Shown here: positions 32,800 through 63,572 of the stretch, one piece after another | How positions within the stretch are numbered: the first letter of the stretch is position 1 | Layout: every line of letters starts with the position of its first letter | Origin: Alphaproteobacteria bacterium | Lineage (GTDB): Bacteria > Myxococcota_A > UBA796 > GCA-2862545 | Length of the DNA stretch: 64,000 nucleotides | Direction of reading: 5' to 3' | NCBI GenBank assembly: GCA_020632925.1 | Contig: JACKER010000007.1 | Span: 244,910 to 308,909 of the forward strand | Notes under the pieces: generated by a model | What the model saw: only the letters and a program-made list of their open reading frames with translations | Database searches by the model: none | Told to the model about the DNA's origin: nothing | Made by a program: the position numbers and the translations under genes

Positions 32800-34454
32800 A
32801 GCGCCTGGCGCTCCTCGATCCCGGGACGCGCATCGATCGGTACGTGGTGCTCGACGTGATCGGCCAGGGCGGGATGGCCGTGGTGTACCGCGTGCGGCAC
32901 GAGAGCCTGGGCAGTGTGCACGCGCTCAAGGTCGTGGGTGTGCCGAGCCGGAGCATCATGCAGCGGCTGTTGGCCGAGGGGAAGGCGCAGGCCAGGGTCC
33001 GGCACCGCAACATCGTCGCCGTCCACGACGTGATCGAGGTCGACGGCTCGCCCGGGCTGGTGATGGAGTACGTCAACGGCCCCTCGCTCGACGGCCTCAT
33101 CCACCACGTGCAGCTGGACCTGGTCACCATCGATCGCATCGGTCGGGCCTTGCTGCGTGGGGTGCAAGCCGCCCACGACGCCGGGCTCATCCACCGCGAC
33201 CTCAAGCCCGCCAACGTCCTGGTTTCGCTCGAGGACGACGGGCTGATCCCGAAGATCGCGGACTTCGGGCTGGTGAAGGACGTGGCCGTGGGCGGCGACA
33301 CCCGCACCGGCTCGATGATGGGGACGCCGAACTACATGTCGCCGGAGCAGATCCGGGACACGAAGTCGGTCGACCACCGCACCGACCTGTTCGCGCTCGG
33401 CGCCATCCTGTACGAGCTGGTCACCCAGCGGCTGGCCTTCAGCGGCAACGACGTCCTCGACATCTTCAACCGCATCGACCGCGGGCAGTACACCCCCCTG
33501 GGCGAGCTGCGCCCCGACGTGCCGCAGCGGATGGTCGAGGCGATCGAGGGCGCGCTGGCGGTCGACCGGGACCGGCGTTGGCCGGGTTGCGCCCGGATGC
33601 TCGAGGTCTGGTGCGGCGACGTCCTGGACCAGCAGATCCCGGCGATCCAGCTGCCTGAGGACACGGTGGAGTGGATCCGCTCCAGCACGACGCTCGTGCC
33701 CGACAGCGTCCCGCCGACACCCGCCGGCACGGCCGTGCCACCCTCGGACGCCGCGGACTCCAACGCGCCGATGACCTGGGCACTGGACGGCGCGGTGAGC
33801 GAGGAGTCTCCGGCCCTGGATCTCGACGCACACGCGCGGCGGCCCGTCTGGCTGGTCGGGGCGGGTGTCGCTGGCCTGGCGCTGCTCTGCGCGGGCGGCC
33901 TGGGCCTCGGCCTGGTGGGGGGCGCGGGCTCCTGGTGGGCGAGCAGACCGCCAGATCCCGTCCCCGTCCCCGTCGCCGCTCCTCCTACGCCCGCTCCCGC
34001 TCCCGCTCCCGCTCCCGCTCCCGCTCCCGCTCCCGCTCCCGCTCCCGATCCCGCTCCCGCTCCCGCTCCCGATCCCGCTCCCGCGCCGACACCCACGCCC
34101 CCCAGCCCACACCCCACCCCAACACCCGTCCCCATCCCGACGCCGACGACGCCGGACCCCGCGCCCGTGCCGGTACCCGAGCCCGTCCCCGTCCCCGTCC
34201 CCGCGCCACCCTCCGCCACCACGACCGCCACGGTGGCCGTCCAGGGCGACGCGACCTCCGTGCTCCTGCGCGACGGCGCCGGCGGCTCGGTCGTCCCGGG
34301 TGGCTCCGTCCCGCCAGGGTCCTACACTGTCCTCGCGACCTTCCCCGGCGCCCAGGAACCCGTCCAGATCGCCACGGGTGTCGCCCTCGCGGCGGGTGAT
34401 CGCATCCTCATCGTTTGCCAGTCCCAGTTCCGTCGGTGCAACATCAGAAGATGA
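32796..34454 (+). CDS. Ser/Thr protein kinase with a TM helix, a Pro-Ala repeat linker and a C-terminal PEGA-like domain
   Basis: The GTG at 32796 overlaps the upstream stop as GTGA. It carries 'HRDLKPANVLV' and 'DFGLV'. Confidence 0.8.
   Translation: MKRLALLDPGTRIDRYVVLDVIGQGGMAVVYRVRHESLGSVHALKVVGVPSRSIMQRLLAEGKAQARVRHRNIVAVHDVIEVDGSPGLVMEYVNGPSLDGLIHHVQLDLVTIDRIGRALLRGVQAAHDAGLIHRDLKPANVLVSLEDDGLIPKIADFGLVKDVAVGGDTRTGSMMGTPNYMSPEQIRDTKSVDHRTDLFALGAILYELVTQRLAFSGNDVLDIFNRIDRGQYTPLGELRPDVPQRMVEAIEGALAVDRDRRWPGCARMLEVWCGDVLDQQIPAIQLPEDTVEWIRSSTTLVPDSVPPTPAGTAVPPSDAADSNAPMTWALDGAVSEESPALDLDAHARRPVWLVGAGVAGLALLCAGGLGLGLVGGAGSWWASRPPDPVPVPVAAPPTPAPAPAPAPAPAPAPAPAPDPAPAPAPDPAPAPTPTPPSPHPTPTPVPIPTPTTPDPAPVPVPEPVPVPVPAPPSATTTATVAVQGDATSVLLRDGAGGSVVPGGSVPPGSYTVLATFPGAQEPVQIATGVALAAGDRILIVCQSQFRRCNIRR
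33988..34086 (+). repeat. in-frame (cccgct)n hexanucleotide repeat encoding the PAPAPA linker
   Basis: About 15 tandem cccgct/cccgat units. Confidence 0.7.
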
Positions 34455-39684: not shown

Positions 39685-40803
39685 TCAGAGCACCCAACGG
39701 CCGTGCGCGAGGACGCGGCTGACCGAGAGGTCCTCGCCCAGCACGACCAGGTCGGCGTCCGCTCCAGCCGCGATCCGCCCCTTGCCCTCGAAGCGATAGA
39801 GCGCTGCCGGGTTCGTCGTCACCGGCGCGAGCGCGCGTTCGGGCGGGACCCCCGCGGCCAGCAGCCCGCGCACGACGCCCAGCAGGCCCTCGGCGTCGCC
39901 GACCTCCATGTGGAGCAGCTTCCCGTCGCGGTCGAACGTCGGCAGGCAGCCCCCGGCATCCGACGACAGCGTGATGCGCGCCGGATCCCGGCCCTCGGTC
40001 AGGTAGCGGAGCACCGCGGCCGTCGGGTCGACGGTGCCGTCGTCGTAGGGGGGAGGGAAGGCGCTCACGTCGATCCAGCCGCCGTCGTCGGACCAGGCCA
40101 GCGCCTCCTCCCACAGCCGGGGGTTGCGGTTCACGTGTGTCGGGTGGAACACCCGCCGGGGGAGCTCCGTCTCCGCTGCCGCCCGGCGCAGCAGCTCGAG
40201 CCCGCGCCGGCCGTCGCCCAGGTGCAGGTGGACCAGACCCGCCTTGCGGCTCATCATGCCCGCGACGTGGGCGTCCGCGGCGACGCGCAGCAGCTCGTCG
40301 TAGGTCGGCTGGCTCGAGCGGTGGTCGGAGATGGCGACCTCGCCGACCGCCACGATCGTGGGCACGTGGACGATGTCGCCGCGCACCGAGCCGGTCAGCG
40401 TCGGCGGGGGGACCTCGTACCCTCCGGTGTGGATCCACGCAGACAGGCCCATCGCGCGGACCGCGTGGGCGCAGGCCAACAGCTCGCCGATCGTGCGCGT
40501 CGTGCAGTCCGTGCCGAGCAGGCCGACCGCGGTGGTGACGCCGGACCGCGCCAGCGACGCCGGCACCAGCGGCGGGACGCGGGTCTCGGGGCCGCCCTCC
40601 CCACCACCGCCGGTCAGGTGGACGTGGAGGTCGACCAGACCCGGGATCAGCGTGCAGCCGTCGAGGTCGACGACGTCCACACCCCAGCCGGGCGGGGGCT
40701 CGGCGGGCACCCCCAGGGCGAGCACGCGCCCGCCCCCGACGAGGACCGTGGTCGTTCCCAGGTCCTCGGGGGCCCAAACGCGGGCGCCGCGCAGCAGCAG
40801 CAT
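39685..40803 (-). CDS. iadA: isoaspartyl dipeptidase (beta-aspartyl dipeptidase)
   Basis: It carries 'HVHLTGGGGEGGPETR', 'AISDHRS', 'PTHVNRN' and 'TLSSD'. These match my memory of E. coli IadA. The ATG overlaps the cphA stop as ATGA. Confidence 0.8.
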   Translation of the reverse strand: MLLLRGARVWAPEDLGTTTVLVGGGRVLALGVPAEPPPGWGVDVVDLDGCTLIPGLVDLHVHLTGGGGEGGPETRVPPLVPASLARSGVTTAVGLLGTDCTTRTIGELLACAHAVRAMGLSAWIHTGGYEVPPPTLTGSVRGDIVHVPTIVAVGEVAISDHRSSQPTYDELLRVAADAHVAGMMSRKAGLVHLHLGDGRRGLELLRRAAAETELPRRVFHPTHVNRNPRLWEEALAWSDDGGWIDVSAFPPPYDDGTVDPTAAVLRYLTEGRDPARITLSSDAGGCLPTFDRDGKLLHMEVGDAEGLLGVVRGLLAAGVPPERALAPVTTNPAALYRFEGKGRIAAGADADLVVLGEDLSVSRVLAHGRWVL

Positions 40804-43607
40804 CAGTCGTTCGGCTCGGGCGCGCGGGCCACCCGGACCCCACGCTCGTCCATCACCAGCGCGCCCTGCGGCAGCTGGACGACGACGGGCTCCGGAGCCG
40901 GCGGCGCCGGGCGCCAGGCGGGCTGCTCCACGACCTGGACCGCGCCGTCGTGCTCGCGGCCGTAGTAGATGATCTGCTTCCAGCAGCGCGTGAGCTGATC
41001 ACCGAAGACCAGCAGCAGATCGCCCTCTCGGCAGCTGCGCAGCCCCATGTCGAGCGCCTCGATCTCGTCGGGGACGATGTGGACCGCCGCGGGCTGGACC
41101 CCGGCCTCGAGCAGCGCGTCGCGCATCAGCTTCGCCACCGCGCCGCGGTCGCGGCCGCGCGCGTCGTCGTCCTCCTTGCAGATGAACAGGTCGAACGAGC
41201 AGGACGCCCGCGCGGCGATGCGCTGGATGTCCTCGTCGCGGCGGTCGCCGGGGGCGGTGAGCAGGACCACGCGCTTCGTGCGCATCCCGGTCCCGTCCGA
41301 CAGGCGGTCGACCAGGTTGCACATCGCCTCGATCGCGTGCGGGTTGTGGCCGTAGTCGAGGATGACCTTGAAGCCGAGCTCGTCGTAGACGTTCATCCGG
41401 CCCGGCGCCTGGAAGAAGCTGTTGTCGAAGGTCCGGAGCCCGTGGCGGATGTCGTCCAGCTTCACGCCCATCGCCCAGGCCATCGCGGCCGCGAACATCG
41501 CGTTCTGGACGTTGTGGATGGCCTTGCCCTCCATCGTCGCCGGGATGAGGTGGGTCCACAGCAGCGGCATGTGCGACATCCGGTCGTAGATGGTGATCAT
41601 CTGACCGTTGACCCCACCCTCGAGCCCCACGGCCAGCCCGCCCTGCCGGATGTGCTCGCGCACCAGCTCGTGCTGGGGGTTCATCGTCACGTACGCGACG
41701 CGCCGGGCCTCGCTGTGGTCCGCCATCGCGAGGCAGAGCGGGTCGTCGGCGTTGAGCACCACGCAGTCGGACGCGACCTCGATCGGGATGCGCTTGACCT
41801 CGGCGAGCTGCTCGAGCGTGTGGATGCCGCCCAACCCGAGGTGGTCGCCGGCGACGTTGAGGCAGCAGGCCACGTCGGGGTGCCTGTACCCCATGCCGGC
41901 GCGGAGCAGGCCGCCGCGCGCGGTCTCGAGCACGGCGACCGTGACCTTCGGGTCGCGGAGCACCATCTGGGCGCTGATCGGTCCGGTCATGTCGCCCGGG
42001 ACCGTGCGGTTGCCGTCGACGTAGACGCCGTCGGTCGTGGTCAGGCCGACGACCGCGCCGGCCATCTTGTGGATGTGCGCGAGCATGCGGCTCGTCGTCG
42101 TCTTGCCGTTGGTCCCCGTCACGGCGGCGATGGGGATGCGCGTCGGCGTGCCCGGGGGGAACAGCATCTCCATGACGGCGCCCGCCACGTCGCGGGGGTG
42201 ACCCTCCGAGGGCGCGACGTGCATCCGGAAGCCGGGTGCGGCGTTGACCTCGCAGATCCCGCCGCCGACATCGGTCCAGGAGCGCGTGATGTCCGGCGTC
42301 AGGAAGTCCACGCCGCACACGTCCAGCCCCACGGCGGCCGTCGCCCGCTCCGCCATCTCGCGGTTGTCGGGGTGGATCATGTCCGTCACGTCGATCGCGG
42401 TGCCGCCCGTGGACAGGTTCGCCGTCGACCGGAGGTAGAAGACCTCTCCGGCGGTCAGCACGCTCTCCGCCGTCTTGCCGGCGGCCGCGAGCAGCCGCTG
42501 GGCCTGTCCGTCGAGCTCGAGGCGCGTCAGCACCTTCTCGTGCCCGATGCCGCGCCGGGGATCGAGGTTCACGAGGTCCACGAGCTGCGCGACCGTGTGC
42601 TGTCCGTCGCCGACCACGTGCCCCGGCACGCGCTTGCTCGCGGCCACGAGCCGCCCGTCCACCACCAGCAGCCGGTGGTCGAAGCCCTCCACGCACTGCT
42701 CGACCAGCACGACCCGCGAGTGCTCGCGCGCGACCGCGAAGGCGTCGGACACGGCCTGCTCGCCCTCGATCCCGATGGTGATGCCCCGACCGTGGTTGGC
42801 GTCGAGCGGCTTGACCACGACCTTGCCGCCGATGCGCTGCCAGGCGCGGACGGCCTCCTCGCCGGTACGGACCTGGATCTGCTTGGGCACGGGCAGCCCC
42901 ATGTCCGCGAGGATCCGGTTCGTGAGGTTCTTGTCCGACGCGATCTCGACGCCGATGTTCTTGGTCTCGCTCGTCACCGTTGCCCAGATGCGCTTCTGGC
43001 GGCACCCGTGGCCGAACTGGACGAGGGACGCGTCACCGATGCGCAGCCAGGGGATGTCCCGAGCCTCGGCCGCCCGCACCAGCGAGGCCGTGGAGGGCCC
43101 GAACGCGCGGCTCTGCGTCTCGAGGATGAGATCCTCGAGCTCCATCGCGAAGTCGAAGCCGGGCTCCGGCGGCGCGTCGGGGTGCAGCGCCTCGGGGATG
43201 ATGTGGTGGAGGAGTCGGAGCGCCAGCTCGCCCGCCGCCATGCCCACCCAGGGGTCCTCGTACTCGTAGACGACGTGGTACTGCCCGACCTCGCCCGACC
43301 CCCGGGTCTTGCCGAAGGTCACGGGGAAGCCCGCGAGGTGCTGGAGCTCGATCGCGACGTGCTCGAGCACGTGGCCCATCCAGGTGCCGCCGTCCTCCCG
43401 CAGCCGCCGGACGAAGCCGCCGGGCTCGCCGTAGGAGCAGCCGTGGTCGCCCAGGCCGGGCAGCAGCTGCAGGAGCTGATCCACGAAGCCCGGGATCGCC
43501 GCGGACGGGTGGTCCTCGAGCGGGCCGAGGTCGAGCAGGAAGCGGATCACGCGGAAGTGCGCGTACAGGTTCGGGCCGAGGTAGGTACGGCGCTCGAGGA
43601 TGCGCAT
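40803..43607 (-). CDS. cphA: cyanophycin synthetase
   Basis: It has an ATP-grasp domain followed by a Mur-ligase domain ('VTGTNGKTTT'). Confidence 0.9.
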   Translation of the reverse strand: MRILERRTYLGPNLYAHFRVIRFLLDLGPLEDHPSAAIPGFVDQLLQLLPGLGDHGCSYGEPGGFVRRLREDGGTWMGHVLEHVAIELQHLAGFPVTFGKTRGSGEVGQYHVVYEYEDPWVGMAAGELALRLLHHIIPEALHPDAPPEPGFDFAMELEDLILETQSRAFGPSTASLVRAAEARDIPWLRIGDASLVQFGHGCRQKRIWATVTSETKNIGVEIASDKNLTNRILADMGLPVPKQIQVRTGEEAVRAWQRIGGKVVVKPLDANHGRGITIGIEGEQAVSDAFAVAREHSRVVLVEQCVEGFDHRLLVVDGRLVAASKRVPGHVVGDGQHTVAQLVDLVNLDPRRGIGHEKVLTRLELDGQAQRLLAAAGKTAESVLTAGEVFYLRSTANLSTGGTAIDVTDMIHPDNREMAERATAAVGLDVCGVDFLTPDITRSWTDVGGGICEVNAAPGFRMHVAPSEGHPRDVAGAVMEMLFPPGTPTRIPIAAVTGTNGKTTTSRMLAHIHKMAGAVVGLTTTDGVYVDGNRTVPGDMTGPISAQMVLRDPKVTVAVLETARGGLLRAGMGYRHPDVACCLNVAGDHLGLGGIHTLEQLAEVKRIPIEVASDCVVLNADDPLCLAMADHSEARRVAYVTMNPQHELVREHIRQGGLAVGLEGGVNGQMITIYDRMSHMPLLWTHLIPATMEGKAIHNVQNAMFAAAMAWAMGVKLDDIRHGLRTFDNSFFQAPGRMNVYDELGFKVILDYGHNPHAIEAMCNLVDRLSDGTGMRTKRVVLLTAPGDRRDEDIQRIAARASCSFDLFICKEDDDARGRDRGAVAKLMRDALLEAGVQPAAVHIVPDEIEALDMGLRSCREGDLLLVFGDQLTRCWKQIIYYGREHDGAVQVVEQPAWRPAPPAPEPVVVQLPQGALVMDERGVRVARAPEPND

Positions 43608-54409: not shown

Positions 54410-55639
54410 TCACCTCCGCAGACACTCGACGATGTCGAGCCGACTGGCCCGCCACGCCGGGATGGAGCCGAACATCAGGCCGATGAAGGCCGTGGAGCCG
54501 AGTGCGACCGCCACCCCGTTGACCGACCACACGGGCACCCAGGTCTCGACGGCCATGCCGATCGCGACGTGCGCGAGGCTCGTGACCAGCAGCCCCGTCA
54601 CCACACCGAGCACGCCACCCGTCAGCGACAGCGTCGTGGACTCGATCACGAACTGGAACATGATGGTCGGCCGGCTCGCGCCCACCGCCTTGCGGATGCC
54701 GATCTCGCGGACCCGCTCGGTGACCGAGACCAGCATGATGTTCATCACGCCGATGCCGCCGGCGAACAGGCTGATGCCCGCGATGGCGACCACGACCGCG
54801 TCGAGCGCCATGAAGAACGTGTAGAACTGCTGGAGGAAGCTGCCGAAGTTCAGTGACGAGAAGTCCTCGACGTTGCGGTGCAGCGTGAGCAGCGCGGCGT
54901 TGCCGACGGCCTCGACGCTCGCGTTCGACTTCGGGTCGTCGGTCAGCCCGACGAGGAAGCGCGCCTGCTCCGGGCGACCCTCACGCTTCTCCGCGGTCGA
55001 CATCGGGATGAAGGCCGTGGAGTCCCAGGAGAACCCGAAGGACAGGCCGAACAGGTTGCGCGTCTCGAGCACGCCGACGACGGTGTACGGCTTGCGGCCG
55101 ATGGTCATCGTGCGCCCCACCGCGGTCGCCCGCTCGCCGAACAGCTCGTCCGCCAGCGGCCCGGTGATGACCGCGACGCGGCGCAGCGACTCGAGGTCCT
55201 GGCGCTCGACGCCGCGCCCGTGCTCCACGTGCCAGTCGAGGATGTCGAACAGCCCGAGCTCCACACCGACGACGTCCGCCTGCGTGGGCGCGTCCGACGT
55301 CACCCACAGGTTCTCGCGGCCGTAGCTCGCCTGGGGTGCGAGCCGCGCGAGGTGCGGGACCTCGCGGAGCCGCGCCACGTCGGCGTCGGTGAAGCCCTTG
55401 TCGTAGACGGCCTTCTGCCGCGTCGTGGCTTCCTTGCCCTCGCTCGGGATCCAGATCACCAGTCGCGCGCCGCCGATGCTCTCCACGGCGCTCGACAGCG
55501 TCTTGTGGCCCGACTGCGCCAGCGACAGCATCACCACGATCGAGAACGTCCCGATCGTCACCGACAGCATCGTCAGCAGCGTGCGGAACGGGTTCGCTCG
55601 CAGGGTGCGCAGCGCGAGGCGGGCGGTCTCCCAGATCAT
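54410..55639 (-). CDS. ABC transporter permease of the FtsX/MacB type (second paralog)
   Basis: It has the same architecture. The ATG overlaps the MFP stop as ATGA. Confidence 0.8.
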   Translation of the reverse strand: MIWETARLALRTLRANPFRTLLTMLSVTIGTFSIVVMLSLAQSGHKTLSSAVESIGGARLVIWIPSEGKEATTRQKAVYDKGFTDADVARLREVPHLARLAPQASYGRENLWVTSDAPTQADVVGVELGLFDILDWHVEHGRGVERQDLESLRRVAVITGPLADELFGERATAVGRTMTIGRKPYTVVGVLETRNLFGLSFGFSWDSTAFIPMSTAEKREGRPEQARFLVGLTDDPKSNASVEAVGNAALLTLHRNVEDFSSLNFGSFLQQFYTFFMALDAVVVAIAGISLFAGGIGVMNIMLVSVTERVREIGIRKAVGASRPTIMFQFVIESTTLSLTGGVLGVVTGLLVTSLAHVAIGMAVETWVPVWSVNGVAVALGSTAFIGLMFGSIPAWRASRLDIVECLRR

Positions 55640-56700
55640 TCGACCTTCGCCGACAGGTCCTTCACGTCCGCCTGGGCGTAGATCTGGTCGCCGTCGTTCA
55701 CCCCACTCGTGATCTCGACCTCGCGATCGGTCCGGTGGCCGACGGTCACCTTCGTCTTCTCCTTGGTCTTGCCGGTGGCGCCGTCGACGACCAGGTAGAC
55801 GTAGCTGTCACCGTTCTCCTGGAACACGGTCTCGGCGGGCACCTTGACCACGTCCTTCCACTCGCCGACGCGGATGCGGACCTCGGCCGTCATCCCGGGC
55901 TTGATCTCGACCTGCGACGTGGACGGATCGATCTCCACCTTCACGGTGAACACGTCGATCTGGCGCGAGGTGTCGGTGTGCCCCGCGGCGGCGATGGCGG
56001 TGACCTCGCCGGGCACCTCCTCCCCCGGGTACGCGTCGAGCAGGATGGTGGCCGACTGGCCGATGGCGACCTTGGCGACGTCGACCTGGTTGAGGTCGAG
56101 CTCCATGAGCAGCCGGTCCATCTGCGCGATGGTGAGCTGGGCCTCGCCGTTGACCGTGGCCGTCACCCCGGCGGTGACGAGCTCGCCGGGCTCGACGTTG
56201 CGCCGGATCACGACGCCGTCGATGGGGCTGCTGATGGTGCAGTAGTCGAGGCGGTCCTGCGCGGCCTGGACCTGCACGCGCGTGCGCTCGACCGCGATCT
56301 TCGCAAGGTCCACCTGGCGGACCGCGAGATCGTACTCGGCCTCCGAGATGCCGCGGCTCGCGAGCGCCTGCTCCTTGCGCTTGCGCTCGACCTCCGCGTT
56401 CTGCAGCGTCAGCCGGGCTTCCTGGAGGGAGACCCTCGCGAGCGACAGGTCGCGGGCGTAGTCGGTGTCGACGACCTTCATGAGCAGGTCGCCCTTGTGG
56501 ACCTCCTGGCCCTCCTCGACGTGGACCGAGGCGACCTCGCCCGAGACCTTGGCCTTGATGTCGACCTCGAACGAGGGCGCGATCTTGCCGGACTCGCTCA
56601 CGTCGTCGACCAGCTCGTCGCGGGAGACGGTGCGGATGAGCGCGTCGTCGAGGGCGCCACCTCCTCCCATCGAGCAGGCGAACAGCAGCAGGGCGATCAT
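55636..56700 (-). CDS. efflux membrane-fusion (periplasmic adaptor) lipoprotein, MacA/HlyD-like
   Basis: The lipobox 'LLLFACSMGG' is present. It has coiled-coil and lipoyl/beta-barrel motifs. It is the C-terminal part of a 779 aa ORF. Confidence 0.8.
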   Translation of the reverse strand: MIALLLFACSMGGGGALDDALIRTVSRDELVDDVSESGKIAPSFEVDIKAKVSGEVASVHVEEGQEVHKGDLLMKVVDTDYARDLSLARVSLQEARLTLQNAEVERKRKEQALASRGISEAEYDLAVRQVDLAKIAVERTRVQVQAAQDRLDYCTISSPIDGVVIRRNVEPGELVTAGVTATVNGEAQLTIAQMDRLLMELDLNQVDVAKVAIGQSATILLDAYPGEEVPGEVTAIAAAGHTDTSRQIDVFTVKVEIDPSTSQVEIKPGMTAEVRIRVGEWKDVVKVPAETVFQENGDSYVYLVVDGATGKTKEKTKVTVGHRTDREVEITSGVNDGDQIYAQADVKDLSAKVE

Positions 56701-57986
56701 GGCGCGGTCTCCGTGAGGTCGTCGCCGCGCGCCCAGCGCAGGGCGACCTCGGCGAGCGTGAGCTGGACGAGCAGATCGGCCTCGCGCAGGCGGGCCGACC
56801 GGAAGGCGCTCTGGGCGCTGAACAGGTCGAGGATCGAGGCGTTGCCCTGGCCGTAGAGCTCCTGCACGATGCGCAGGTTGCTGGCGGCGAGCTCCTGCTG
56901 CGACCGGACCAGGGGCACCTGCTCGCGCAGCATGTTCACGCGGCTGGCGGCGACGCGGACCTGGTTGCCGATCTCGAGCTCCTGGGAGCGCTGCTGTTGC
57001 TCGAGCTGGCGGGCGCCGACCTTGGCGCGCTCGACGTTCTGGTGGGTCTTCCACAGGTCGAAGGGGCTCCAGGTCGCGCGCAGGCCGATGCTCGCGTCCA
57101 GCGTCGGGCGGAGCTGGTCGGCGTCGGGCCCGCCGAGGGAGGTCCCCGCGGTGGCGCCGGCCGCGCCCGCCGTCCCCACGACGGAGACCGCGGGCAGCGC
57201 ACCCGAGCGGGCCAGGCGCAGCTCGGCGTCGTTCTGGTCGATGCTGGCCTCGACGCGCGCCAGCTCGGGCCGCGCGTCCCCGTCGCCCTCGCTCACGGAG
57301 ACGGGGGCGAGCTCGGGCTCGGTGGACACGGCGTCGGTGAGCACGAGGTGGTCGGAGGCGTCGTGCCCGAGCAGCTGCAGGAGGTCCTGCTCGGCGGCGT
57401 ACTGGCGCTGGCGCTGGGACAGCAGGTCGGCCTGCTGGGACACGAGATCGACCCGCGAGCGGTTCACGTCGAGATCGGCCGACAACCCGGCGGCGGCGCG
57501 GGCCTCGATGATGGCGAGCGTCTCGGCGGTGGCGTCGAGCGCATCCTCGGTGGCGGCGATGGACAGCTCGATGCCCTTCACGTTCCAGTAGGCGTCGATC
57601 GCGGAGCGCACGAGCTGCCGGCGCGTGATCTCGATGTCGGTGCGGGTGACGTCGAGGGAGGCCTCGGCGCGATCGATGTTCGCGTCCACCCCGCCGCCCG
57701 ACCACAGGATCATCGAGCCCGTGCCGCGGGCGTCCCAGTTGGCCCCGCTCGCGTCGTAGGCCTCGGCACCCCAGGGCTTGACGACACCGAGCTCGGCGCT
57801 GCCGTTGGCGGTCACGCTGGCGCCGAAGCGGTCGAGCTTCGCGCGCTGCACGTCGATGCGCGACAGGAGCTCGCGCAGCTCGGTGGACGCGAGATCGGGG
57901 TTCGCCGCCTCGACCTCCGTGATGGCGTCGGCGAGCGAGAGGTTCGTGTCGGCGGCCTGGGCCACCGCGAGCCACAGCGCGATCAC
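56697..57986 (-). CDS. TolC-family outer-membrane efflux protein
   Basis: The GTG start with a GGAGG RBS overlaps the ATPase stop as GTGA. It has a short signal peptide '[10 protein letters not shown]'. Confidence 0.75.
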   Translation of the reverse strand: MIALWLAVAQAADTNLSLADAITEVEAANPDLASTELRELLSRIDVQRAKLDRFGASVTANGSAELGVVKPWGAEAYDASGANWDARGTGSMILWSGGGVDANIDRAEASLDVTRTDIEITRRQLVRSAIDAYWNVKGIELSIAATEDALDATAETLAIIEARAAAGLSADLDVNRSRVDLVSQQADLLSQRQRQYAAEQDLLQLLGHDASDHLVLTDAVSTEPELAPVSVSEGDGDARPELARVEASIDQNDAELRLARSGALPAVSVVGTAGAAGATAGTSLGGPDADQLRPTLDASIGLRATWSPFDLWKTHQNVERAKVGARQLEQQQRSQELEIGNQVRVAASRVNMLREQVPLVRSQQELAASNLRIVQELYGQGNASILDLFSAQSAFRSARLREADLLVQLTLAEVALRWARGDDLTETAP

Positions 57987-58696
57987 GCGGACCTCCGCAG
58001 CACGGTGTCGGGGTCGCCGTCCTCGACGATGTGCCCGTCCCGCATCCAGACGACGCGCTTGGCGTAGCGCGCGACGTGCGGCTCGTGGGTGACGATGAGG
58101 ATGGTGAGGCCGCTCTCGTGCAGGCCGCCGATGAGGTTCATGATCTGCCGCGTGGTCTCGGTGTCGAGCGCGCCGGTGGGCTCGTCGGCGAGGAGGAGGG
58201 GAGGGCGGTTGACGAGCGCGCGCGCGATGGCCACGCGCTGCTGCTGTCCGCCGGAGAGCTGGTTGGGGCGGTGCCCGACGCGGTCCCCGAGCCCGACCTC
58301 TTCGAGCGCCTTGCGGGAGCGCTCGCGGCGCTCGCGGGTGCCGACCCCGGCGTAGACCAGCGGGACCTCGACGTTCTCGAGCGCCGACAGCCGGGGGAGG
58401 AGGTGGAAGCTCTGGAAGACGAAGCCGATCTTCTGGTTGCGGATGCGCGAGAGGGCGCGGTCGCCGAGCTTGCTCACCGGCTGTCCCTCGAGCTTGACGA
58501 CGCCCGTGTTGGGTCGGTCCAGCAGGCCGATCAGGTTCATCATCGTGGACTTCCCGGAGCCCGAGGTGCCCATGATCGCGACGTACTCCCCGGCGTCCAC
58601 GCGCAGGCTGACGTGATCGAGCGCACGGAGCTCCGTGTCGCCGGAGCGGTAGATGCGACTCACGTCGTCGAGCTCGACCAGCGGCCGACCGTCCAA
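57983..58696 (-). CDS. ABC transporter ATP-binding protein (MacB/LolD-type NBD)
   Basis: It has Walker A ('GTSGSGKST'), the ABC signature ('[15 protein letters not shown]') and Walker B ('[12 protein letters not shown]'). Confidence 0.85.
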
Positions 58697-58845
58697 CTGT
58701 CCCCCCCTTTCGGTGCCGGAGCCTACGCCCCTGGTGGCGTCGGTCTTGCATCGTCCGGCACGAGGGCGCCCCCGCTGGTGACGATCCGCGACACGCGGGC
58801 GGCGCTCCATCCCCCTCTCCCCCACAGGGGGAGAGGGTTGGGGTG

Positions 58846-61250
58846 AGGGGGCCCGGGACGCTGGTGGTGCTGCGCGACGCCGCTGATGGGAACCGCCGAG
58901 AAGCTCAGGACAGAGCGGGGCTGCGGTCGTGGTCGTCCTCTCGGGTCGCCGGGCGCGCCAGCACGCGGGAGCCGGCGGGTGGTGGGCCCGGCAGCACTCT
59001 GTCCTCGGCGTCCTCTGCGTCCTCTGCGGTTCCGATTCGGGGCGCCTCGCCCGTCGGGGTGTTCGCAGGCCCGGGACGCTGGTGGCGATGCGCGACGCCG
59101 CTGATGGGAACCGCCGAGAAGCTCAGGACAGAGCGGGGCTGCGGTCGTGGTCGTCCTCTCGGGACGCCGGGCGCTGGCGCTACGGTGTTCACCGCGCTCC
59201 TGACCGTGGTGGTGTACGGAGAGTCGGCGGGTGATGGGCCCGGCACTCTGTCCTCGGCGTCCTCTGCGTCTCTGCGGTTCGAATCTGGGCGCCTCGCCCC
59301 GTCGGGGGTGATCGCGGAGCCCGGGACGCTGGTGGTGATGCGCGACGCCGCTGATGGGAACCGCCGAGAAGCTCAGGACAGAGCGGGGCCGCGGTCGTGG
59401 TCGTCCTCTCGGGGCGCCCAGCACCCAGGGCTGGCGCTACGGAGAGGGCGGAAGTGGGCCCGGCACTCTGTCCTCGGCGTCCTCCGCGTCCTCTGCGGTT
59501 CCGAATCTGGGCGTCTCGCCCCGTCGGGGTGTTCGCGGGTCCGGGACGCTGGTGGCGATGCGCGACGCTGCTGATGGGAACCGCCGAGAAGCTCAGGACA
59601 GAGTGGGGCCGCGGTCGTGGTCGTCCTCTCGGGGCGCCCAGGGCCGACGCTGCGGTGTTCACCGCGCTCCTGGCCGTGGTGGTGTACGGAGAGTCGGCGG
59701 GTGATGGGCCCGGCACTCTGTCCTCGGCGTCCTCTGCGTCCTCTGCGGTTCCGAATCTGGGCGTCTCGCCCCGTCGGGGTGTTCGCGGGTCCGGGACGCT
59801 GGTGGCGATGCGCGACGCTGCTGATGGGAACCGCCGAGAAGCTCAGGACAGAGTGGGGCCGCGGTCGTGGTCGTCCTCTCGGGGCGCCCAGGGCCGACGC
59901 TGCGGTGTTCACCGCGCTCCTGGCCGTGGTGGTGTACGGAGAGTCGGCGGGTGATGGGCCCGGCACTCTGTCCTCGGCGTCCTCTGCGTCCTCTGCGGTT
60001 CCGAATCTGGGCGTCTCGCCCCGTCGGGGTGTTCGCGGGTCCGGGACGCTGGTGGCGATGCGCGACGCTGCTGATGGGAACCGCCGAGAAGCTCAGGACA
60101 GAGCGGGGCTGCGGTCGTGGTCGTCCTCTCGGGACGCCGGGCGCTGGCGCTACGGTGTTCACCGCGCTCCTGACCGTGGTGGTGTACGGAGAGTCGGCGG
60201 GTGATGGGCCCGGCACTCTGTCCTCGGCGTCCTCTGCGTCTCTGCGGTTCGAATCTGGGCGCCTCGCCCCGTCGGGGGTGATCGCGGAGCCCGGGACGCT
60301 GGTGGTGATGCGCGACGCCGCTGATGGGAACCGCCGAGAAGCTCAGGACAGAGCGGGGCCGCGGTCGTGGTCGTCCTCTCGGGGCGCCCAGCACCCAGGG
60401 CTGGCGCTACGGAGAGGGGGCGGAAGTGGGCCCGGCACTCTGTCCTCGGCGTCCTCCGCGTCCTCTGCGGTTCCGAATCTGGGCGTCTCGCCCCGTCGGG
60501 GTGTTCGCGGGTCCGGGACGCTGGTGGCGATGCGCGACGCTGCTGATGGGAACCGCCGAGAAGCTCAGGACAGAGTGGGGCCGCGGTCGTGGTCGTCCTC
60601 TCGGGGCGCCCAGGGCCGACGCTGCGGTGTTCACCGCGCTCCTGGCCGTGGTGGTGTACGGAGAGTCGGCGGGTGATGGGCCCGGCACTCTGTCCTCGGC
60701 GTCCTCTGCGTCCTCTGCGGTTCCGAATCTGGGCGTCTCGCCCCGTCGGGGTGTTCGCGGGTCCGGGACGCTGGTGGCGATGCGCGACGCCGCTGATGGG
60801 AACCGCCGAGAAGCTCAGGACAGAGCGGGGCCGCGGTCGTGGTCGTCCTCTCGGGGCGCCCAGCACCCAGGGCTGGCGCTACGGAGAGCGGGCGGAAGTG
60901 GGCCCGGCACTCTGTCCTCGGCGTCCTCCGCGTCCTCTGCGGTTCCGAATCTGGGCGTCTCGCCCCGTCGGGGTGTTCGCGGGTCCGGGACGCTGGTGGC
61001 GATGCGCGACGCCGCTGATGGGAACCGCCGAGAAGCTCAGGACAGAGCGGGGCTGCGGTCGTGGTCGTCCTCTCGGGTCGCCGGGCGCGCCAGCCCGCGG
61101 GAGCCGGCGGGTGGTGGGCCCGGCACTCTGTCCTCGGCGTCCTCTGCGTCCTCTGTGGTTCCGAATCTGGGCGTCTCGCCCCGTCGGGGTGTTCGCGGAG
61201 CCCGGGACTGGTAGCGGTGCGCGACGCCCCCGATGTGAACTGCGGCCGCC
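58846..61250. repeat. tandem array of about 10 copies of a 225-250 bp palindromic unit (noncoding, MITE/ERIC-like)
   Basis: The anchor 'gatgggaaccgccgagaagctcaggacagag' recurs every 224-250 bp. The units are near-identical, with 3 linker variants. Confidence 0.8.
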
Positions 61251-61421
61251 ATCACCGTGACCACGGATCGCGCCAACGACGTGCGTCCCCCCAGGTGACC
61301 AGGTACAGCGAATCGCTCCCGAGGCGGCGTCGAACGATCGGCGACACGCTCGGGACGGGGCGTTTCGGGTGCGGGACGGCGAGCGGGGATGGGCCCTCGC
61401 TCCAGAACTCGTGGGGGAACC

Positions 61422-62669
61422 GTGCGGATCGGCATCGACTTCGGCACCACCAACTCCGCGGTCGCCGTCCTGGGGCCGGGCGGTCCGCGCCTGCTCGAGC
61501 TGGCGCCGGGGGAGCGGACGCAGCGCACCGTGATCCACGCGTCGACCGAGGGTGAGATCACGTTCGGGAACGCCGCCTTCCGGGCCTACGTCGAGCAGGA
61601 CCTCTCCGGGCGCTTCCTGCGGTCCATCAAGGCCTTCCTGTCGCAGGACGTGCCGAAGACCACGCTCGGTCGCCGGCGCTACGCGTTCACCGAGCTCATC
61701 TCGGCCTACCTGCGCTTCCTGATCACGGGAGCCGAGCGGGTGACGGGGGAGTCCGTCACGCACGTGGTCGTCGGGCGGCCCGTGTCCTTCTCGAACGACG
61801 TGGAGCGCGACGAGCTGGCGCTCACGCGCTTGCAGCAGGCCATCGCGGACGCGGGCGTGGGGTCGGTCGGGCTGCAGCTCGAGCCCGTGGCCGCCGCGTA
61901 CCGCTACGAGCTCGGGCTGGACCGCGAGCGGATCGTGCTGGTCGGCGACTTCGGCGGCGGCACGTCGGACTTCGCCATCCTGCGCTGCGGCCCGGAGCGC
62001 ACGGCCTCGCGCGACCGCCTCGACGACGTGCTCGGGACCTCGGGCGTCGCGCAGGCGGGCGACGTGCTGGACGGGCGGTTCATGGACACGTTCCTGATGG
62101 ACGCGTTCGGCCGCGGCTCCACCTGGGTGCGCCCGTACCGGACCGAGCCCGAGCCCTGGGACCACCCGGTGCAGCGCCAGATCCAGCGGCTGTACTACCT
62201 GCACCTGCTGCGGTCGCGGGAGCTGCAGGAGGGCCTGGATCGCCTGGAGCCGCGCATGACCGATCCGACGGTGGTGCGGCGGCTGCGGCGGCTGATCTTC
62301 GACGACCTCGGGTACCCGATGGCGTGGGCGATCGAGGCGGCGAAGCGCGCGTTCGCGGACGGACCGGCGGTGACCTTCCGGTTCGACGAGTTCTACAGCG
62401 AGGCGCTCGACCTGCGTCGCGACGTGGATCTGGGGACCTACGAGGAGGGCTGCGCGGCCGTGCTCGACGCGTACCGGGGCGCCATCGACGAGGTGCTGGT
62501 GAGGGCGGGGCTGACGGCGGACGACGTGGACGACGTGTTCCTCACGGGCGGGACCTCGCAGCTGCCGTTCGTGCGGGGGCTGTTCGCGGAGCGCTTCGGC
62601 CCGGGGCGGCTGCGCAGCGCGGACGCGTTCACCAGCGTGTGCGAGGGGCTGGCGGTGGCGGCCGCTTGA
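61422..62669 (+). CDS. Hsp70-family actin-like ATPase (short YegD/HscC-like form)
   Basis: It carries 'IGIDFGTTNSAVAV', 'DFGGGTSD' and 'LTGGTSQLP'. Confidence 0.8.
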   Translation: MRIGIDFGTTNSAVAVLGPGGPRLLELAPGERTQRTVIHASTEGEITFGNAAFRAYVEQDLSGRFLRSIKAFLSQDVPKTTLGRRRYAFTELISAYLRFLITGAERVTGESVTHVVVGRPVSFSNDVERDELALTRLQQAIADAGVGSVGLQLEPVAAAYRYELGLDRERIVLVGDFGGGTSDFAILRCGPERTASRDRLDDVLGTSGVAQAGDVLDGRFMDTFLMDAFGRGSTWVRPYRTEPEPWDHPVQRQIQRLYYLHLLRSRELQEGLDRLEPRMTDPTVVRRLRRLIFDDLGYPMAWAIEAAKRAFADGPAVTFRFDEFYSEALDLRRDVDLGTYEEGCAAVLDAYRGAIDEVLVRAGLTADDVDDVFLTGGTSQLPFVRGLFAERFGPGRLRSADAFTSVCEGLAVAAA

Positions 62670-62700: not shown

Positions 62701-63390
62701 TCATTCACCTCGAAGCCGCTGGAGGACGCGGATGTCGTCCGGTGTCAGCTCGACGCAGTCCACGTTGGGATCACAGGTCGGATTCCCGTTGCACCAGAAC
62801 GAACCAGGGTGACCTGGATCCCCCCACCAGGCCAGATCCGAAGCGACACCGCTGCAGCACGTGGGCTGCTGTCGTTGAATGGCCTCGACCATCCCCGCGG
62901 AGTCGAAATAGATCTGGGTGCCATGCGAGACCAGATTGGTATAGAAACCAAAGTCGTCCTGATCGATGCGGTAGGTTCGCGAGTAGACGAAATAGTGGCG
63001 GCCAGATTCCGTCTGGCACCTCAGCGCCTTCTCTGTGTGGACGGTGTATGTGCTCACACCCTCCTCGGATCGAGTCGACGTCTGAATGTATGGGTTGAAA
63101 GCGGGTTCGAGGAACCCTCTGCTCGTGACGTAGTCGAGAAAGGTAGGGTAGGACCCACCGAGAACGACCTCACATCCCCTCTCCAGACCAGCGACCGGAT
63201 AGCAGGTTCGAAAGCGATCGTGGGGAAATGTCTTGGTGCCGATGCAGCCAGCGACCTGGAGCTCTTTGGTGCCGGCATCGCATGGCTCCTGGATACCTGC
63301 GGTATCGCACACGGGCGGGGGTGTTGCCGACTCCGACCGGTGACATGCCACTACCATGACCATGAGTACAGGAAGACACGAAGCGATCAT
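62701..63390 (-). CDS. Cys-rich secreted lipoprotein, hypothetical, in a lower-GC region
   Basis: The lipobox 'MVMVVACHRS' is present. It has 14 Cys and a C-terminal 'WWGDPGHPGSFWCNGNPTCDP'. Confidence 0.5.
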   Translation of the reverse strand: MIASCLPVLMVMVVACHRSESATPPPVCDTAGIQEPCDAGTKELQVAGCIGTKTFPHDRFRTCYPVAGLERGCEVVLGGSYPTFLDYVTSRGFLEPAFNPYIQTSTRSEEGVSTYTVHTEKALRCQTESGRHYFVYSRTYRIDQDDFGFYTNLVSHGTQIYFDSAGMVEAIQRQQPTCCSGVASDLAWWGDPGHPGSFWCNGNPTCDPNVDCVELTPDDIRVLQRLRGE

Positions 63391-63489
63391 CGGCTACTGT
63401 GCCCCCGAGCCACAACCGTAGCGCATCGCCATCGCGTAGATGTTGTTCGACGGCGTTTGCGCATCCAACCGCCCGCAGTGACCAGGGCC

Positions 63490-63560
63490 GCGCGGCCGTG
63501 CTCGACGCGTGCCGCGACGCCATCGACGAGGTGCTGGTGAAGGCGGGGCTGACGGCGTAG
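63490..63560 (+). pseudogene. ~67 bp remnant copy of an internal Hsp70-like gene segment (~94% identical to 62453-62519)
   Basis: The frame is preserved ('AAVLDACRDAIDEVLVKAGLTA') and then hits TAG. Confidence 0.5.
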
Positions 63561-63572
63561 GATGCTCGAAGA

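What the first reader, a model, noticed from the sequence alone, without database searches (positions are those of the whole stretch)
58800..61300. Array of about 10 near-identical 225-250 bp palindromic units fills the divergent intergenic region between the efflux operon and the Hsp70-like gene
The core unit is about 185 bp and recurs at roughly 58880, 59105, 59352, 59580, 59828, 60070, 60320, 60548, 60796 and 61020. The core is itself a long imperfect palindrome: 5' 'ggcccggcactctgtcct' pairs with 3' 'aggacagagtggggccg', inner 'gcggttcc' pairs with 'ggaaccgc', and the centre holds 'ccccgtcgggg'. Units are joined by three recurring linker types:
- B1 is about 68 bp: 'agggccgacgctgcggtgttcaccgcgctcctggccgtggtggtgtacggagagtcggcgggtgat'.
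- B2 is about 40 bp: 'agcacccagggctggcgctacggagagggcggaagt'.
- B3 is 'gtcgccgggcgcgccagcacgcgggagccggcgggtggt'.
The linker order is B3,B1',B2,B1,B1,B1',B2,B1,B2,B3, so the array starts and ends with the same linker. A strong GC hairpin (ccctctccccc-acag-ggggagaggg, 58808-58835) precedes it.
It is not a CRISPR array: the unit is about 6 times too long and the 'spacers' recur. All six-frame ORFs across it translate to low-complexity repeats. I cannot place it in a known family. Candidate explanations are a MITE/ERIC-like element amplified in tandem, an array of structured ncRNA genes, or a protein-binding scaffold in a divergent promoter region.
Basis: seen in the sequence. Interest (0 to 1): 0.7.

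Follow-up and report, generated by a model that had tools for sequence, protein, structure and literature searches.

The report
Orphan 250-bp noncoding tandem repeat array
A real 2.4-kb block of ten near-identical 217-250-bp noncoding DNA units sits between two divergent genes of an uncultured myxobacterium-like genome; it looks like a young satellite-type repeat that grew by unequal recombination, with no sign of a gene, a known RNA or a mobile element, so it is a curiosity and not a new system.

Summary
Window 58852-61200 holds 10 head-to-tail units with periods of 217-250 bp, plus a degenerate partial 11th unit (61201-61250). The array lies between a MacB-type efflux operon (minus strand) and a YegD-like Hsp70-fold gene (plus strand). 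A three-unit block (720 bp) is duplicated at 99.7% identity, three units are 100% identical, and the two edge units are the most divergent; this is the signature of unequal recombination. The array is noncoding: the codon-phase GC spread is 0.09 against about 0.51 in flanking genes, and there are no Pfam or protein hits. It matches no Rfam family and has no canonical -10 element or terminator in any unit. The palindrome is only modestly better than chance (z about -3), equally on both strands, with no covariation. No related sequence exists in the genome, metagenome, viral, plasmid or phage collections searched, and orthologous loci at 70-75% identity lack it. An independent sister-strain MAG contig breaks inside the last unit, so the repeat is not an artefact of one assembly. 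The copy number rests on one assembly. The verdict is a lineage-specific satellite-like repeat of low to moderate interest.

The parts
58852..61200 (.). Tandem array of 10 complete units (U1-U10). Unit lengths are 218, 250, 220, 250, 250, 250, 222, 250, 222 and 217 bp. Unit types run A-B-C-D-D-B-C-D-C-A.
   Evidence: nhmmer E = 1e-59 to 1e-68 for each unit
61201..61250 (.). Degenerate partial 11th unit: the first ~45 nt of a unit, 83% identical over 36 nt. It marks the right end of the array.
   Evidence: (family D3)
58852..59069 (.). U1, type A (B3 variable segment), the left edge unit. It is 93-96% identical to U10 but only 75-84% identical to the internal units.
60984..61200 (.). U10, type A, the right edge unit. 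Its 3' part is also present at the start of the sister-strain contig L013.
59070..59789 (.). Higher-order block U2-U4 (types B-C-D), first copy.
   Evidence: 99.7% identical to 60040-60761; exact repeats of 349 and 373 bp at offsets of 970 and 972 bp.
60040..60761 (.). Higher-order block U6-U8 (types B-C-D), second copy.
59790..60039 (.). U5, type D. It is 100% identical to U4 and U8.
60762..60983 (.). U9, type C. It is 98-99% identical to U3 and U7.
59457..59612 (.). Example of the core-centred imperfect palindrome (left arm GGCCCGGCACTCTGTCCT...GCGGTTCC, right arm GGAACCGC...AGGACAGAGTGGGGCC). Nine complete copies exist in the array.
   Evidence: z from -2.9 to -3.8, both strands, RNA and DNA parameters; 56 pairs, 0 compensatory
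58813..58837 (.). GC-rich hairpin CCCTCTCCCCC-ACA-GGGGGAGAGGG, just left of the array and about 110 bp upstream of the probable ABC ATPase start. It is not part of a repeat unit.
   Evidence: read directly; only weak chance miRNA-hairpin matches
57983..58705 (-). ABC transporter ATPase (MacB/LolD-type), first gene of the efflux operon and left neighbour of the array. NCBI annotates it at 275 aa, starting at 58810; relatives are 238 aa.
61422..62669 (+). Hsp70-fold protein of 415 aa (YegD-like), right neighbour of the array.

Best explanation
The array is a young, lineage-specific, noncoding satellite-type tandem repeat (a long-unit VNTR). An ancestral segment of about 220-250 bp in a divergent intergenic spacer was duplicated. 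The copies then diverged into four variants, mainly through slippage deletions in one variable segment. The array kept growing and being homogenised by unequal homologous recombination or replication slippage between units. The most recent events were a single-unit duplication (D-D) and a duplication of a three- to four-unit block (about 720-970 bp). The imperfect palindrome inside each unit is a DNA-level feature. It may promote slippage or template switching, or it may be a relic of the founding sequence. No gene product needs to be invoked.

Shown: the anatomy, the noncoding status, the higher-order duplication, presence in two independent assemblies, and absence from relatives.

Inferred: the recombination mechanism, and the idea that the array is selectively neutral or at most tunes the spacing between the two divergent promoters.
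For: - Unit relationships: U4, U5 and U8 are 100% identical; U2 and U6 are 99%; U3, U7 and U9 are 98-99%. The edge units U1 and U10 are the most divergent from the interior, and the terminal partial unit is degenerate at 83%. Homogenised interiors with diverged edges are what unequal crossing-over produces.
- Block U2-U4 versus U6-U8: 718 matches, 2 mismatches and 2 gap columns (99.7%). Exact repeats of 349-373 bp occur at offsets of 970/972 bp and 250 bp.
- The variable segments are related by an indel between TACGG direct repeats, which indicates slippage.
- Noncoding: codon-phase GC spread is 0.094 against 0.51-0.52 in flanking genes. The periods of 250 and 220 bp are not multiples of 3. 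There are no Pfam hits and no protein homologues.
- No Rfam family. No promoter-like or terminator-like sites. No compensatory pairs. Folding support is equal on both strands.
- No copy elsewhere in the window or in held loci or in any collection searched.
- Orthologous Hsp70-like loci at 70-71% identity and ABC-operon loci at 74-75% identity have gaps of only 50-100 bp and no array.
- Sister-strain contig L013 (GCA_020430605.1) begins inside the last unit at window 61131 and is 98-99% identical onward. Its one difference within the unit (61145, T versus C) lies at a site that also varies between units in the window, which is consistent with exchange between units.
- Tandem repeats are generally enriched in prokaryotic intergenic space (PMC12418385).
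Against: - A 2.4-kb noncoding block is unusual in a gene-dense bacterial genome, and its persistence in two sampled strains could reflect selection.
- The nested palindrome is better than chance (z about -3), so some structure-dependent role for DNA or RNA is not excluded.
- Recombination was not observed directly, because only one assembly resolves the array.
- The rest of the source genome could not be searched, so dispersed copies, which would point to a mobile origin, are not formally excluded.
Confidence: 0.55

Rival explanations
1. Structured-RNA array. The whole array is transcribed from a flanking promoter, most plausibly on the G+U-rich plus strand towards the Hsp70-like gene, or on the minus strand as a giant leader of the efflux operon. 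The transcript is then cut into ~220-250-nt hairpin RNAs, or it acts as a repetitive 5' leader.
For: - Each unit can fold into a long hairpin (-87 kcal/mol for the 156-nt core on the plus strand, z = -2.9).
- All six one-sided changes inside predicted pairs are G-C to G-U on the plus strand.
- The array is strongly G>C and T>A on the plus strand (GC skew +0.12, AT skew -0.28).
- Tandem sRNA gene arrays do exist (NsiR1, PMC4030482).
Against: - No Rfam match.
- The conserved core contains no TA dinucleotide, there are no -35/-10 pairs, and there are no T-runs of 4 or more on either strand, so the units are not autonomous genes.
- None of the 56 predicted pairs is compensatory.
- The minus strand folds with an equal or better z-score (-3.3 to -3.8), which points to DNA symmetry and not to a strand-specific RNA.
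- The C/T versus G/A asymmetry is not significant (8:2 in the conserved parts, 9:11 overall).
- The array is not conserved in relatives.
Confidence: 0.12
2. Tandemly amplified palindromic mobile element (MITE-, REP/BIME- or REPIN-like). The ~155-185-bp core with terminal inverted arms began as a nonautonomous transposable element, and later local duplication produced the array.
For: - The core has inverted terminal arms (11 + 5 bp outer, 8 bp inner) and a size typical of bacterial MITEs.
- Arms alternate in orientation and are separated by two alternating spacer classes, which recalls BIME architecture. The comparison with BIMEs rests on my own knowledge.
Against: - No solo or diverged copy in the other 61 kb of the window or in about 90 kb of related loci.
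- The exact 20-mer is absent from the genome, metagenome and viral collections apart from bare chance hits.
- No BLASTN hit in the plasmid or phage collections.
- No transposase, RAYT-like or integrase gene among the window genes I annotated.
- The unit variants share their 'linkers', so the array grew by duplication and not by repeated insertion.
Confidence: 0.12
3. Protein-binding scaffold. The ten regularly spaced palindromes are binding sites for a DNA-binding protein (a regulator of the divergent genes, a nucleoid-associated protein, or a centromere-like partition site comparable to sopC).
For: - Regular spacing of dyad-symmetric motifs in a divergent promoter region.
- Symmetry is equally strong on both strands and with DNA parameters, as expected for a double-stranded DNA site.
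- The 28-mer is invariant in all ten copies.
Against: - No candidate binding-protein gene (ParB-, regulator- or partition-type) was identified next to the array.
- The unit is far longer than known iterons or centromere repeats.
- Invariance of the 28-mer is expected anyway, given how recent the copies are.
- Orthologous efflux and Hsp70-like genes in relatives function without any such array.
Confidence: 0.1
4. Assembly artefact. The array, or its copy number, was created by the assembler.
For: - Only one assembly (the 1.13-Mb contig) resolves it.
- Some differences between units are homopolymer-length changes (GGG, GGGGG and CGGG in the type C units), which could be long-read errors.
- Collapse and mis-expansion of repeats is a known assembly error (PMC12418385).
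Against: - An independently assembled MAG from another sample (GCA_020430605.1) contains the last unit plus the unique flank at 98-99% identity, and its contig terminates inside the repeat. That is what a short-read assembler does at a real multi-copy repeat.
- The four structured unit variants in a non-periodic order, the diverged edges and the degenerate terminal unit are not what assembler stutter produces.
- Exact repeats of up to 373 bp mean a short-read-only assembler could not have laid out this order by chance.
Confidence: 0.04
5. Coding repeat protein.
For: Long ORFs of up to 296 aa exist in all six frames.
Against: - Open frames are expected at 72% GC.
- Periods of 250 and 220 bp shift the reading frame from one unit to the next.
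- Codon-phase GC spread is 0.094 against about 0.51 in genes.
- No Pfam hit at E<=1 for six ORFs.
- No homologue among 5.8 billion proteins.
Confidence: 0.01

Closest known systems
Bacterial intergenic VNTR/minisatellite loci (e.g. mycobacterial MIRU-type loci)
   Same: Head-to-tail noncoding units in an intergenic spacer. The units show variant subtypes and indels. Growth by slippage or unequal recombination is the likely mechanism. Copy number is probably strain-variable, since the sister-strain assembly breaks at the array.
   Different: The unit here is 217-250 bp, whereas MIRUs are tens of bp up to about 100 bp (from my own knowledge). MIRU-type units are dispersed at many loci in a genome, and no second locus was detected here. 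This unit also carries a long nested palindrome.
Eukaryotic satellite DNA with higher-order repeats
   Same: Monomer variants are arranged in a higher-order block (B-C-D) that is itself duplicated at 99.7% identity. The interior is homogenised and the edges are diverged.
   Different: There are only 10 units, in a bacterial chromosome, with no centromeric context.
REP/BIME clusters (REPINs) of enterobacteria and pseudomonads
   Same: Inverted arms alternate in orientation and are separated by alternating spacer classes. The location is extragenic.
   Different: BIME palindromic units are about 35-40 bp, occur hundreds of times per genome and are associated with RAYT transposases (from my own knowledge). 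Here the arms are not individually palindromic, no dispersed copies were detected and no RAYT gene was seen.
NsiR1 tandem sRNA gene array of heterocystous cyanobacteria
   Same: About 10-12 direct repeats lie upstream of a protein-coding gene.
   Different: NsiR1 units encode a 60-nt sRNA, each with its own promoter, and are conserved across heterocystous cyanobacteria next to hetF (PMC4030482). Here there is no promoter or terminator per unit and no conservation beyond one population.
Plasmid centromere repeat arrays (e.g. F sopC: 12 x 43-bp repeats, each with an inverted repeat)
   Same: Around 10-12 regularly spaced direct repeats, each containing dyad symmetry.
   Different: The unit here is five to six times longer and the location is chromosomal. 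No partition genes were identified next to the array. The details of sopC are from my own knowledge.
CRISPR arrays
   Same: Conserved partly palindromic repeats alternate with a more variable segment.
   Different: The conserved part is about 185 bp against 23-50 bp in CRISPR. The 'spacers' are homologous to each other and recur. No cas genes were seen among the window genes I annotated.

Membership tests
CRISPR array | Short direct repeats (about 23-50 bp) separated by unique spacers of similar length | tested here: not met
   The conserved part is about 185 bp. The variable segments (about 36-68 bp) align with each other and recur as four types.
CRISPR array | Associated cas genes or a leader | tested here: not met
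   The neighbours are an ABC/adaptor/MacB efflux operon and an Hsp70-fold gene. PADLOC gives only generic ATPase hits.
MITE / REP-BIME / REPIN | Multiple dispersed copies in the same genome | tested here: inconclusive
   No copy in the other 61 kb of the window, on the sister-strain contig beyond the array, or in any collection. The remaining ~1 Mb of the source contig and the rest of the MAG could not be searched.
MITE / REP-BIME / REPIN | Terminal inverted repeats flanked by target-site duplications, or an associated transposase/RAYT | tested here: not met
   Inverted arms exist, but the units abut through shared homologous variable segments without target-site duplications. No transposase was found among the annotated window genes.
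Tandem sRNA gene array (NsiR1-like) | Each repeat carries its own promoter (and terminator) | tested here: not met
   The scan found no promoter-like and no terminator-like sites. The conserved core has no TA dinucleotide, TAnnnT occurs only twice without a -35 element, and there are no T-runs of 4 or more. Caveat: only sigma-70-type and one sigma-54-type pattern were tested.
Tandem sRNA gene array (NsiR1-like) | Conservation of the array and its genomic neighbourhood across related genomes | tested here: not met
   Absent upstream of orthologues at 70-75% identity. No sequence relatives found.
Any described structured RNA family (Rfam 15) | Covariance-model match at or near the gathering score | tested here: not met
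   Only two chance miRNA-hairpin hits on the flanking GC hairpin (E about 0.45, 22 bits against cut-offs of 55-88), and nothing in the units. No hit at gathering score anywhere in the window.
Structured RNA (novel) | Compensatory base-pair changes that support the helices | tested here: inconclusive
   0 of 56 pairs show a change on both sides, and the covariation term is -0.63 kcal/mol. The copies are too similar to be informative.
Coding tandem-repeat protein | Period a multiple of 3, codon-position composition bias, and protein homologues | tested here: not met
   Periods of 250, 220, 218 and 217 bp are not multiples of 3; only 222 is. Codon-phase GC spread is 0.094 against about 0.51 in genes. 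No Pfam hits and no homologues.
Noncoding VNTR / satellite-type tandem repeat | Head-to-tail units, a homogenised interior with diverged edges, and higher-order duplicated blocks | tested here: met
Noncoding VNTR / satellite-type tandem repeat | Copy-number polymorphism between strains | not testable with these tools
   The sister-strain assembly breaks inside the last unit, so its copy number is unknown.
Centromere-like / iteron protein-binding array | A cognate binding-protein gene nearby and demonstrated binding | not testable with these tools
   No ParB-, SopB- or regulator-type gene lies adjacent. Binding cannot be assessed in silico.

The most novel reading that the evidence does not exclude
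The array is a functional, lineage-restricted element. Either it is a multi-unit precursor of ~220-250-nt hairpin RNAs transcribed from a flanking promoter, or it is a dyad-symmetric DNA scaffold that recruits a protein to the divergent efflux/Hsp70-like promoter region. In either case its copy number would act as a rapidly evolving regulatory dial.
Probability: 0.1. Interest if true: 0.6.

Novelty: new member of a known kind. Interest (0 to 1): 0.27.

Why it matters
If this is simply a young satellite-like repeat, its value is mostly practical. It shows that long-read MAGs resolve long-unit tandem arrays that short-read assemblies break on or collapse, and it provides a likely strain-typing (VNTR) locus for this uncultured Myxococcota-like population. 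It is also a clean bacterial example of higher-order-repeat evolution by unequal recombination, a process usually studied in eukaryotic satellites. It would become more interesting only if transcription, protein binding or copy-number-dependent expression of the flanking efflux operon or Hsp70-like gene were demonstrated.

Tried and rejected
1. Rfam, at permissive E-value on 57.5-62.5 kb and at gathering score on the full window: nothing relevant.
2. tRNA/tmRNA scan: none.
3. Exact 20-mer CCGAGAAGCTCAGGACAGAG in genome contigs, metagenome contigs and viral contigs: only 6 single hits. BLAST showed each to be a bare 20-22-nt chance match in unrelated sequence.
4. BLASTN in distant mode with two units against plasmids and phages: no match.
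5. Sensitive BLASTN and a profile HMM (nhmmer --max) of the units against the window and all held loci: no extra copies except the sister-strain edge.
6. Protein route to related arrays through spurious ORFs (a 296-aa array ORF against 5.8 billion proteins): nothing. Pfam on six array ORFs at E<=1: nothing.
7. Synteny route. Orthologous Hsp70-like loci L001-L004 and L012, and the gene table for P0013, show no array.
8. L011 (84% orthologue) ends 37 bp upstream of the gene, and those bases carry no repeat sequence, so it is uninformative.
9. Exact look-ups of the window's Hsp70-like protein (both start codons) and of MacB found no contig, so the rest of the source genome could not be reached.
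10. The left edge in the sister MAG is not on record; the ABC ATPase cluster has a single member.
11. Covariation analysis was uninformative because the copies are too similar.
12. The strand-asymmetric C/T substitution idea, as evidence for a plus-strand RNA, was rejected as not significant.
13. Sigma-54-like and sigma-70-like pattern searches found nothing.
14. Literature searches for myxobacterial or deltaproteobacterial repeat families and for long-unit bacterial tandem repeats found no described counterpart.
15. A defence-system context for the Hsp70-fold gene was rejected: there is only a weak partial PADLOC hit and a YegD-like NCBIfam match below cut-off.
Full report
**Observation**

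The sequence between 58.8 and 61.3 kb is a genuine tandem array.
- Tandem Repeats Finder reports overlapping periods of 222, 250 and 472 bp over 58849-61240.
- The repeat finder places ten copies at spacings of 218, 250, 220, 250, 250, 250, 222, 250 and 222 bp, plus a degenerate 11th start (83% identity) at 61208.
Shuffled sequence gives zero matches.
- The stated palindrome arms, the linker sequences and the linker order are all present as described.

**Anatomy, corrected**

Cutting the array at the recurrent [C/T]CCGGGAC motif gives ten complete units, 58852-61200, with lengths of 218, 250, 220, 250, 250, 250, 222, 250, 222 and 217 bp. About 45 nt of a decayed 11th unit follow.

The array opens with a right arm (58888) and closes with a left arm (61116).

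The "linkers" are not independent elements. They align with each other, and B2 equals B1' minus 34 nt lying between two TACGG direct repeats.

The units fall into four types in the order A-B-C-D-D-B-C-D-C-A:
- Type D: U4, U5 and U8 are 100% identical.
- Type B: U2 and U6 are 99% identical.
- Type C: U3, U7 and U9 are 98-99% identical.
- Type A: the edge units U1 and U10 resemble each other (93-96%) but are only 75-87% identical to the interior units.

Block U2-U4 (720 bp) and block U6-U8 (722 bp) differ by two substitutions and one 2-bp indel, which is 99.7% identity. The longest exact repeats are 373, 368 and 349 bp, at offsets of 972, 250 and 970 bp.

**Context**

- The window is about 72% GC.
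- To the left, on the minus strand, lies an efflux operon: an ABC ATPase, an adaptor/OEP-like ORF and two MacB/FtsX permeases.
- To the right, on the plus strand, lies a 415-aa Hsp70-fold protein whose best NCBIfam match is the YegD-type "molecular chaperone" model, below cut-off.
- About 145 bp of unique sequence (containing an 11-bp-stem GC hairpin at 58813-58837) separates the array from the probable ABC start codon, and about 170 bp separates it from the Hsp70-like start codon.
- The remaining gene content fits Myxococcota: Ser/Thr kinases with PEGA and WD40 domains, MopE repeats, a caspase-like protein, a subtilase and cyanophycin synthetase. No transposase, integrase or defence system was found among the genes I annotated.
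- The source is a MAG contig of 1,125,816 bp that NCBI labels "Alphaproteobacteria bacterium", but nearly all named homologues of the Hsp70-like protein are Myxococcota.

**Not coding**

- In flanking genes the spread of GC content between the three codon phases averages 0.51-0.52 in 150-nt windows. Across the array it averages 0.094, with a maximum of 0.24.
- Most periods are not multiples of three.
- Six long array ORFs have no Pfam match even at E<=1.
- A 296-aa ORF that crosses 3.7 units, and so samples all frames, has no homologue among 5.8 billion proteins.

**Not a known RNA, and no evidence for autonomous RNA genes**

- Rfam gives only two chance miRNA-hairpin hits on the flanking GC hairpin, nothing in the units, and nothing at gathering score in the whole window. 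There are no tRNA or tmRNA genes.
- The consensus scan finds no promoter-like or terminator-like site.
- The array contains only 11 TA dinucleotides: ten in the variable segments and one in the decayed 11th unit. TAnnnT occurs twice, without a -35 partner. There is no run of four or more T or A on either strand, and no sigma-54-like motif.
- The nine complete core-centred hairpins yield a 56-pair consensus with no compensatory change and a covariation term of -0.63 kcal/mol, because the copies are too alike to be informative.
- The six one-sided changes are all G-C to G-U on the plus strand. However, the C/T versus G/A counts (8:2 in the conserved parts, 9:11 over all variable columns) are not significantly asymmetric.

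**How real is the palindrome?**

Whole-unit folds are not better than dinucleotide shuffles (z from -1.1 to -2.2). The arm-to-arm core (156 nt) is consistently better than shuffles:

| Strand | RNA parameters | DNA parameters |
|---|---|---|
| Plus | z = -2.9 | z = -3.0 |
| Minus | z = -3.3 | z = -3.8 |

The alternative linker-centred hairpin is weaker and depends on unit type, with z from -1.4 to -3.3. The dyad symmetry is therefore real but modest. Because it is equal on both strands, it reads as a DNA-level feature and not as a strand-specific RNA.

**Distribution**

- No further copy exists in the other 61 kb of the window.
- The invariant 20-mer is absent from 596 Gb of species-representative genomes, from the JGI metagenome contigs and from IMG/VR, apart from six bare 20-22-nt chance matches.
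- BLASTN in distant mode finds nothing in PLSDB plasmids or INPHARED phages.
- Orthologous Hsp70-like genes at 70-71% identity sit 50-70 bp from different neighbours. ABC-operon orthologues at 74-75% identity have gaps of 75-100 bp upstream. Neither has an array.
- The array is therefore restricted to this population or species.

**Independent confirmation**

The 90%-identity cluster of the Hsp70-like protein contains MCA9488692.1 from a different MAG, GCA_020430605.1 ("Myxococcales bacterium"), with 3 differences in 415 residues. Its 9.4-kb contig (L013) begins at window position 61131, inside the last repeat unit. It matches the window at about 98-99% through the unique flank and the gene, and nhmmer recognises its first 69 bases as a unit end (E = 2e-16).

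A short-read contig that terminates inside the repeat is what a real multi-copy tandem repeat produces. The element is therefore not an artefact of one assembly. The copy number of ten and some homopolymer-length differences between units do rest on the single resolving assembly. The only difference between the strains within the shared unit (61145, T versus C) lies at a site that is also polymorphic among units in the window.

**Interpretation**

Several features match the pattern of satellite-type evolution by unequal homologous recombination and replication slippage, and do not match repeated insertion of a mobile element or acquisition of spacers:
- identical adjacent units;
- a near-perfect duplicated three-unit block;
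- indel-related variable segments;
- divergent edge units and a decayed terminal unit.

I therefore regard the array as a young, lineage-specific, noncoding long-unit tandem repeat in a permissive divergent spacer. Its palindrome may promote slippage or may be a relic of the founding sequence (confidence about 0.55). Intergenic tandem repeats are a recognised and enriched class in prokaryotes (PMC12418385).

The functional alternatives are a read-through transcript processed into hairpin RNAs, a protein-binding scaffold, or a MITE-like origin of the unit. Each remains possible at roughly 0.1, because the rest of the source genome, transcription and protein binding could not be examined.

**Comparison with known systems**

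The array works like, and can be filed with, bacterial VNTR or minisatellite loci and eukaryotic higher-order satellites, although its unit is unusually long for a bacterial noncoding repeat. It fails the membership tests for the following:
- CRISPR (repeat length, recurring homologous "spacers", no cas genes);
- NsiR1-type sRNA arrays (no per-unit promoter, no conservation; PMC4030482);
- coding repeat proteins;
- every Rfam family.

Membership in MITE/REP-type families is unsupported but not fully testable here.

**Verdict**

The array is a new sequence member of a known kind of feature, and its interest is low to moderate.

Noticed in passing
window 62701-63390 (minus strand); breakpoint near 62919; compare L013 1571-2185: The gene just downstream of the Hsp70-like gene is a mosaic relative to the sister strain. 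The C-terminal ~70 residues are identical, while the rest is only about 50% identical (66% overall, 229 aa versus 204 aa). DNA identity between the two genomes ends abruptly at 62919. The protein is cysteine-rich and has no Pfam or NCBIfam family. This looks like a recombination breakpoint or a hypervariable N-terminal region.
   Followed up: partly
beyond the window end on the same 1.13-Mb contig; weak trace at window 63480-63563: A 99-aa C-terminal fragment of the Hsp70-like protein (MCB9683668.1, 97% identical to residues 317-415) is annotated five accession numbers away from the full gene on the same contig. An identical-length fragment sits on a 743-bp ENA contig. A 28-aa match at 75% identity lies at 63480-63563. 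Together these suggest a segmental duplication or insertion downstream of the gene.
   Followed up: partly
window 55636-57975 (minus strand): The 779-aa 'HlyD' ORF has an abnormal whole-ORF codon-phase GC pattern (0.85/0.58/0.70, whereas neighbouring genes have about 0.95 in phase 3). Relatives encode a separate 433-aa OEP and a 358-aa adaptor at this position. This is probably two genes in different frames, or a frameshift, and not a single fusion protein.
   Followed up: partly
window 58706-58810: NCBI annotates the ABC ATPase at 275 aa (start at 58810, immediately next to the GC hairpin), but the closest relatives are 232-246 aa. The true start is probably near 58705, which places the hairpin at 58813-58837 about 110 bp upstream, in the promoter or leader region.
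   Followed up: partly
window 58790-58851: The ~40 nt to the left of U1 (…CCCCCACAGGGGGAGAGGGTTGGGGTGAGGGGG) loosely resembles the end of a unit (…CGCCCCGTCGGGGTGTTCGCGGGT). The flanking GC hairpin may therefore be a decayed counterpart of the unit's central CCCCGTCGGGG mini-hairpin. nhmmer does not find this similarity significant.
   Followed up: partly
whole window / source record: There is a taxonomic label conflict. The source MAG is labelled 'Alphaproteobacteria bacterium' at NCBI, but the near-identical sister MAG is labelled 'Myxococcales bacterium'. Nearly all named homologues and the gene content (PEGA and WD40 kinases, MopE repeats) point to Myxococcota.
   Followed up: partly
window 7131-7266 and 33990-34084: Two hexanucleotide tandem repeats: CGGACG about 22.7 copies (or a 12-mer about 11 copies), and CCCGCT about 15.8 copies at 95% match. 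They probably encode dipeptide repeats if they lie within genes.
   Followed up: no
L011 (ENA ERZ27258485, k141_1559237), bases 1-37: The contig carrying the 84%-identical Hsp70-like orthologue ends only 37 bp upstream of the gene. A repeat-induced assembly break in a related species is possible, but those 37 bp show no unit sequence.
   Followed up: yes
window 39685-43607 versus the P0128 locus: Cyanophycin synthetase and an amidohydrolase lie about 15 kb from the efflux operon in the window. In a relative with a 74%-identical ABC ATPase they sit immediately next to the operon. This implies that about 15 kb (including caspase-like, subtilase and GST-domain genes) was inserted or rearranged in this lineage.
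   Followed up: no
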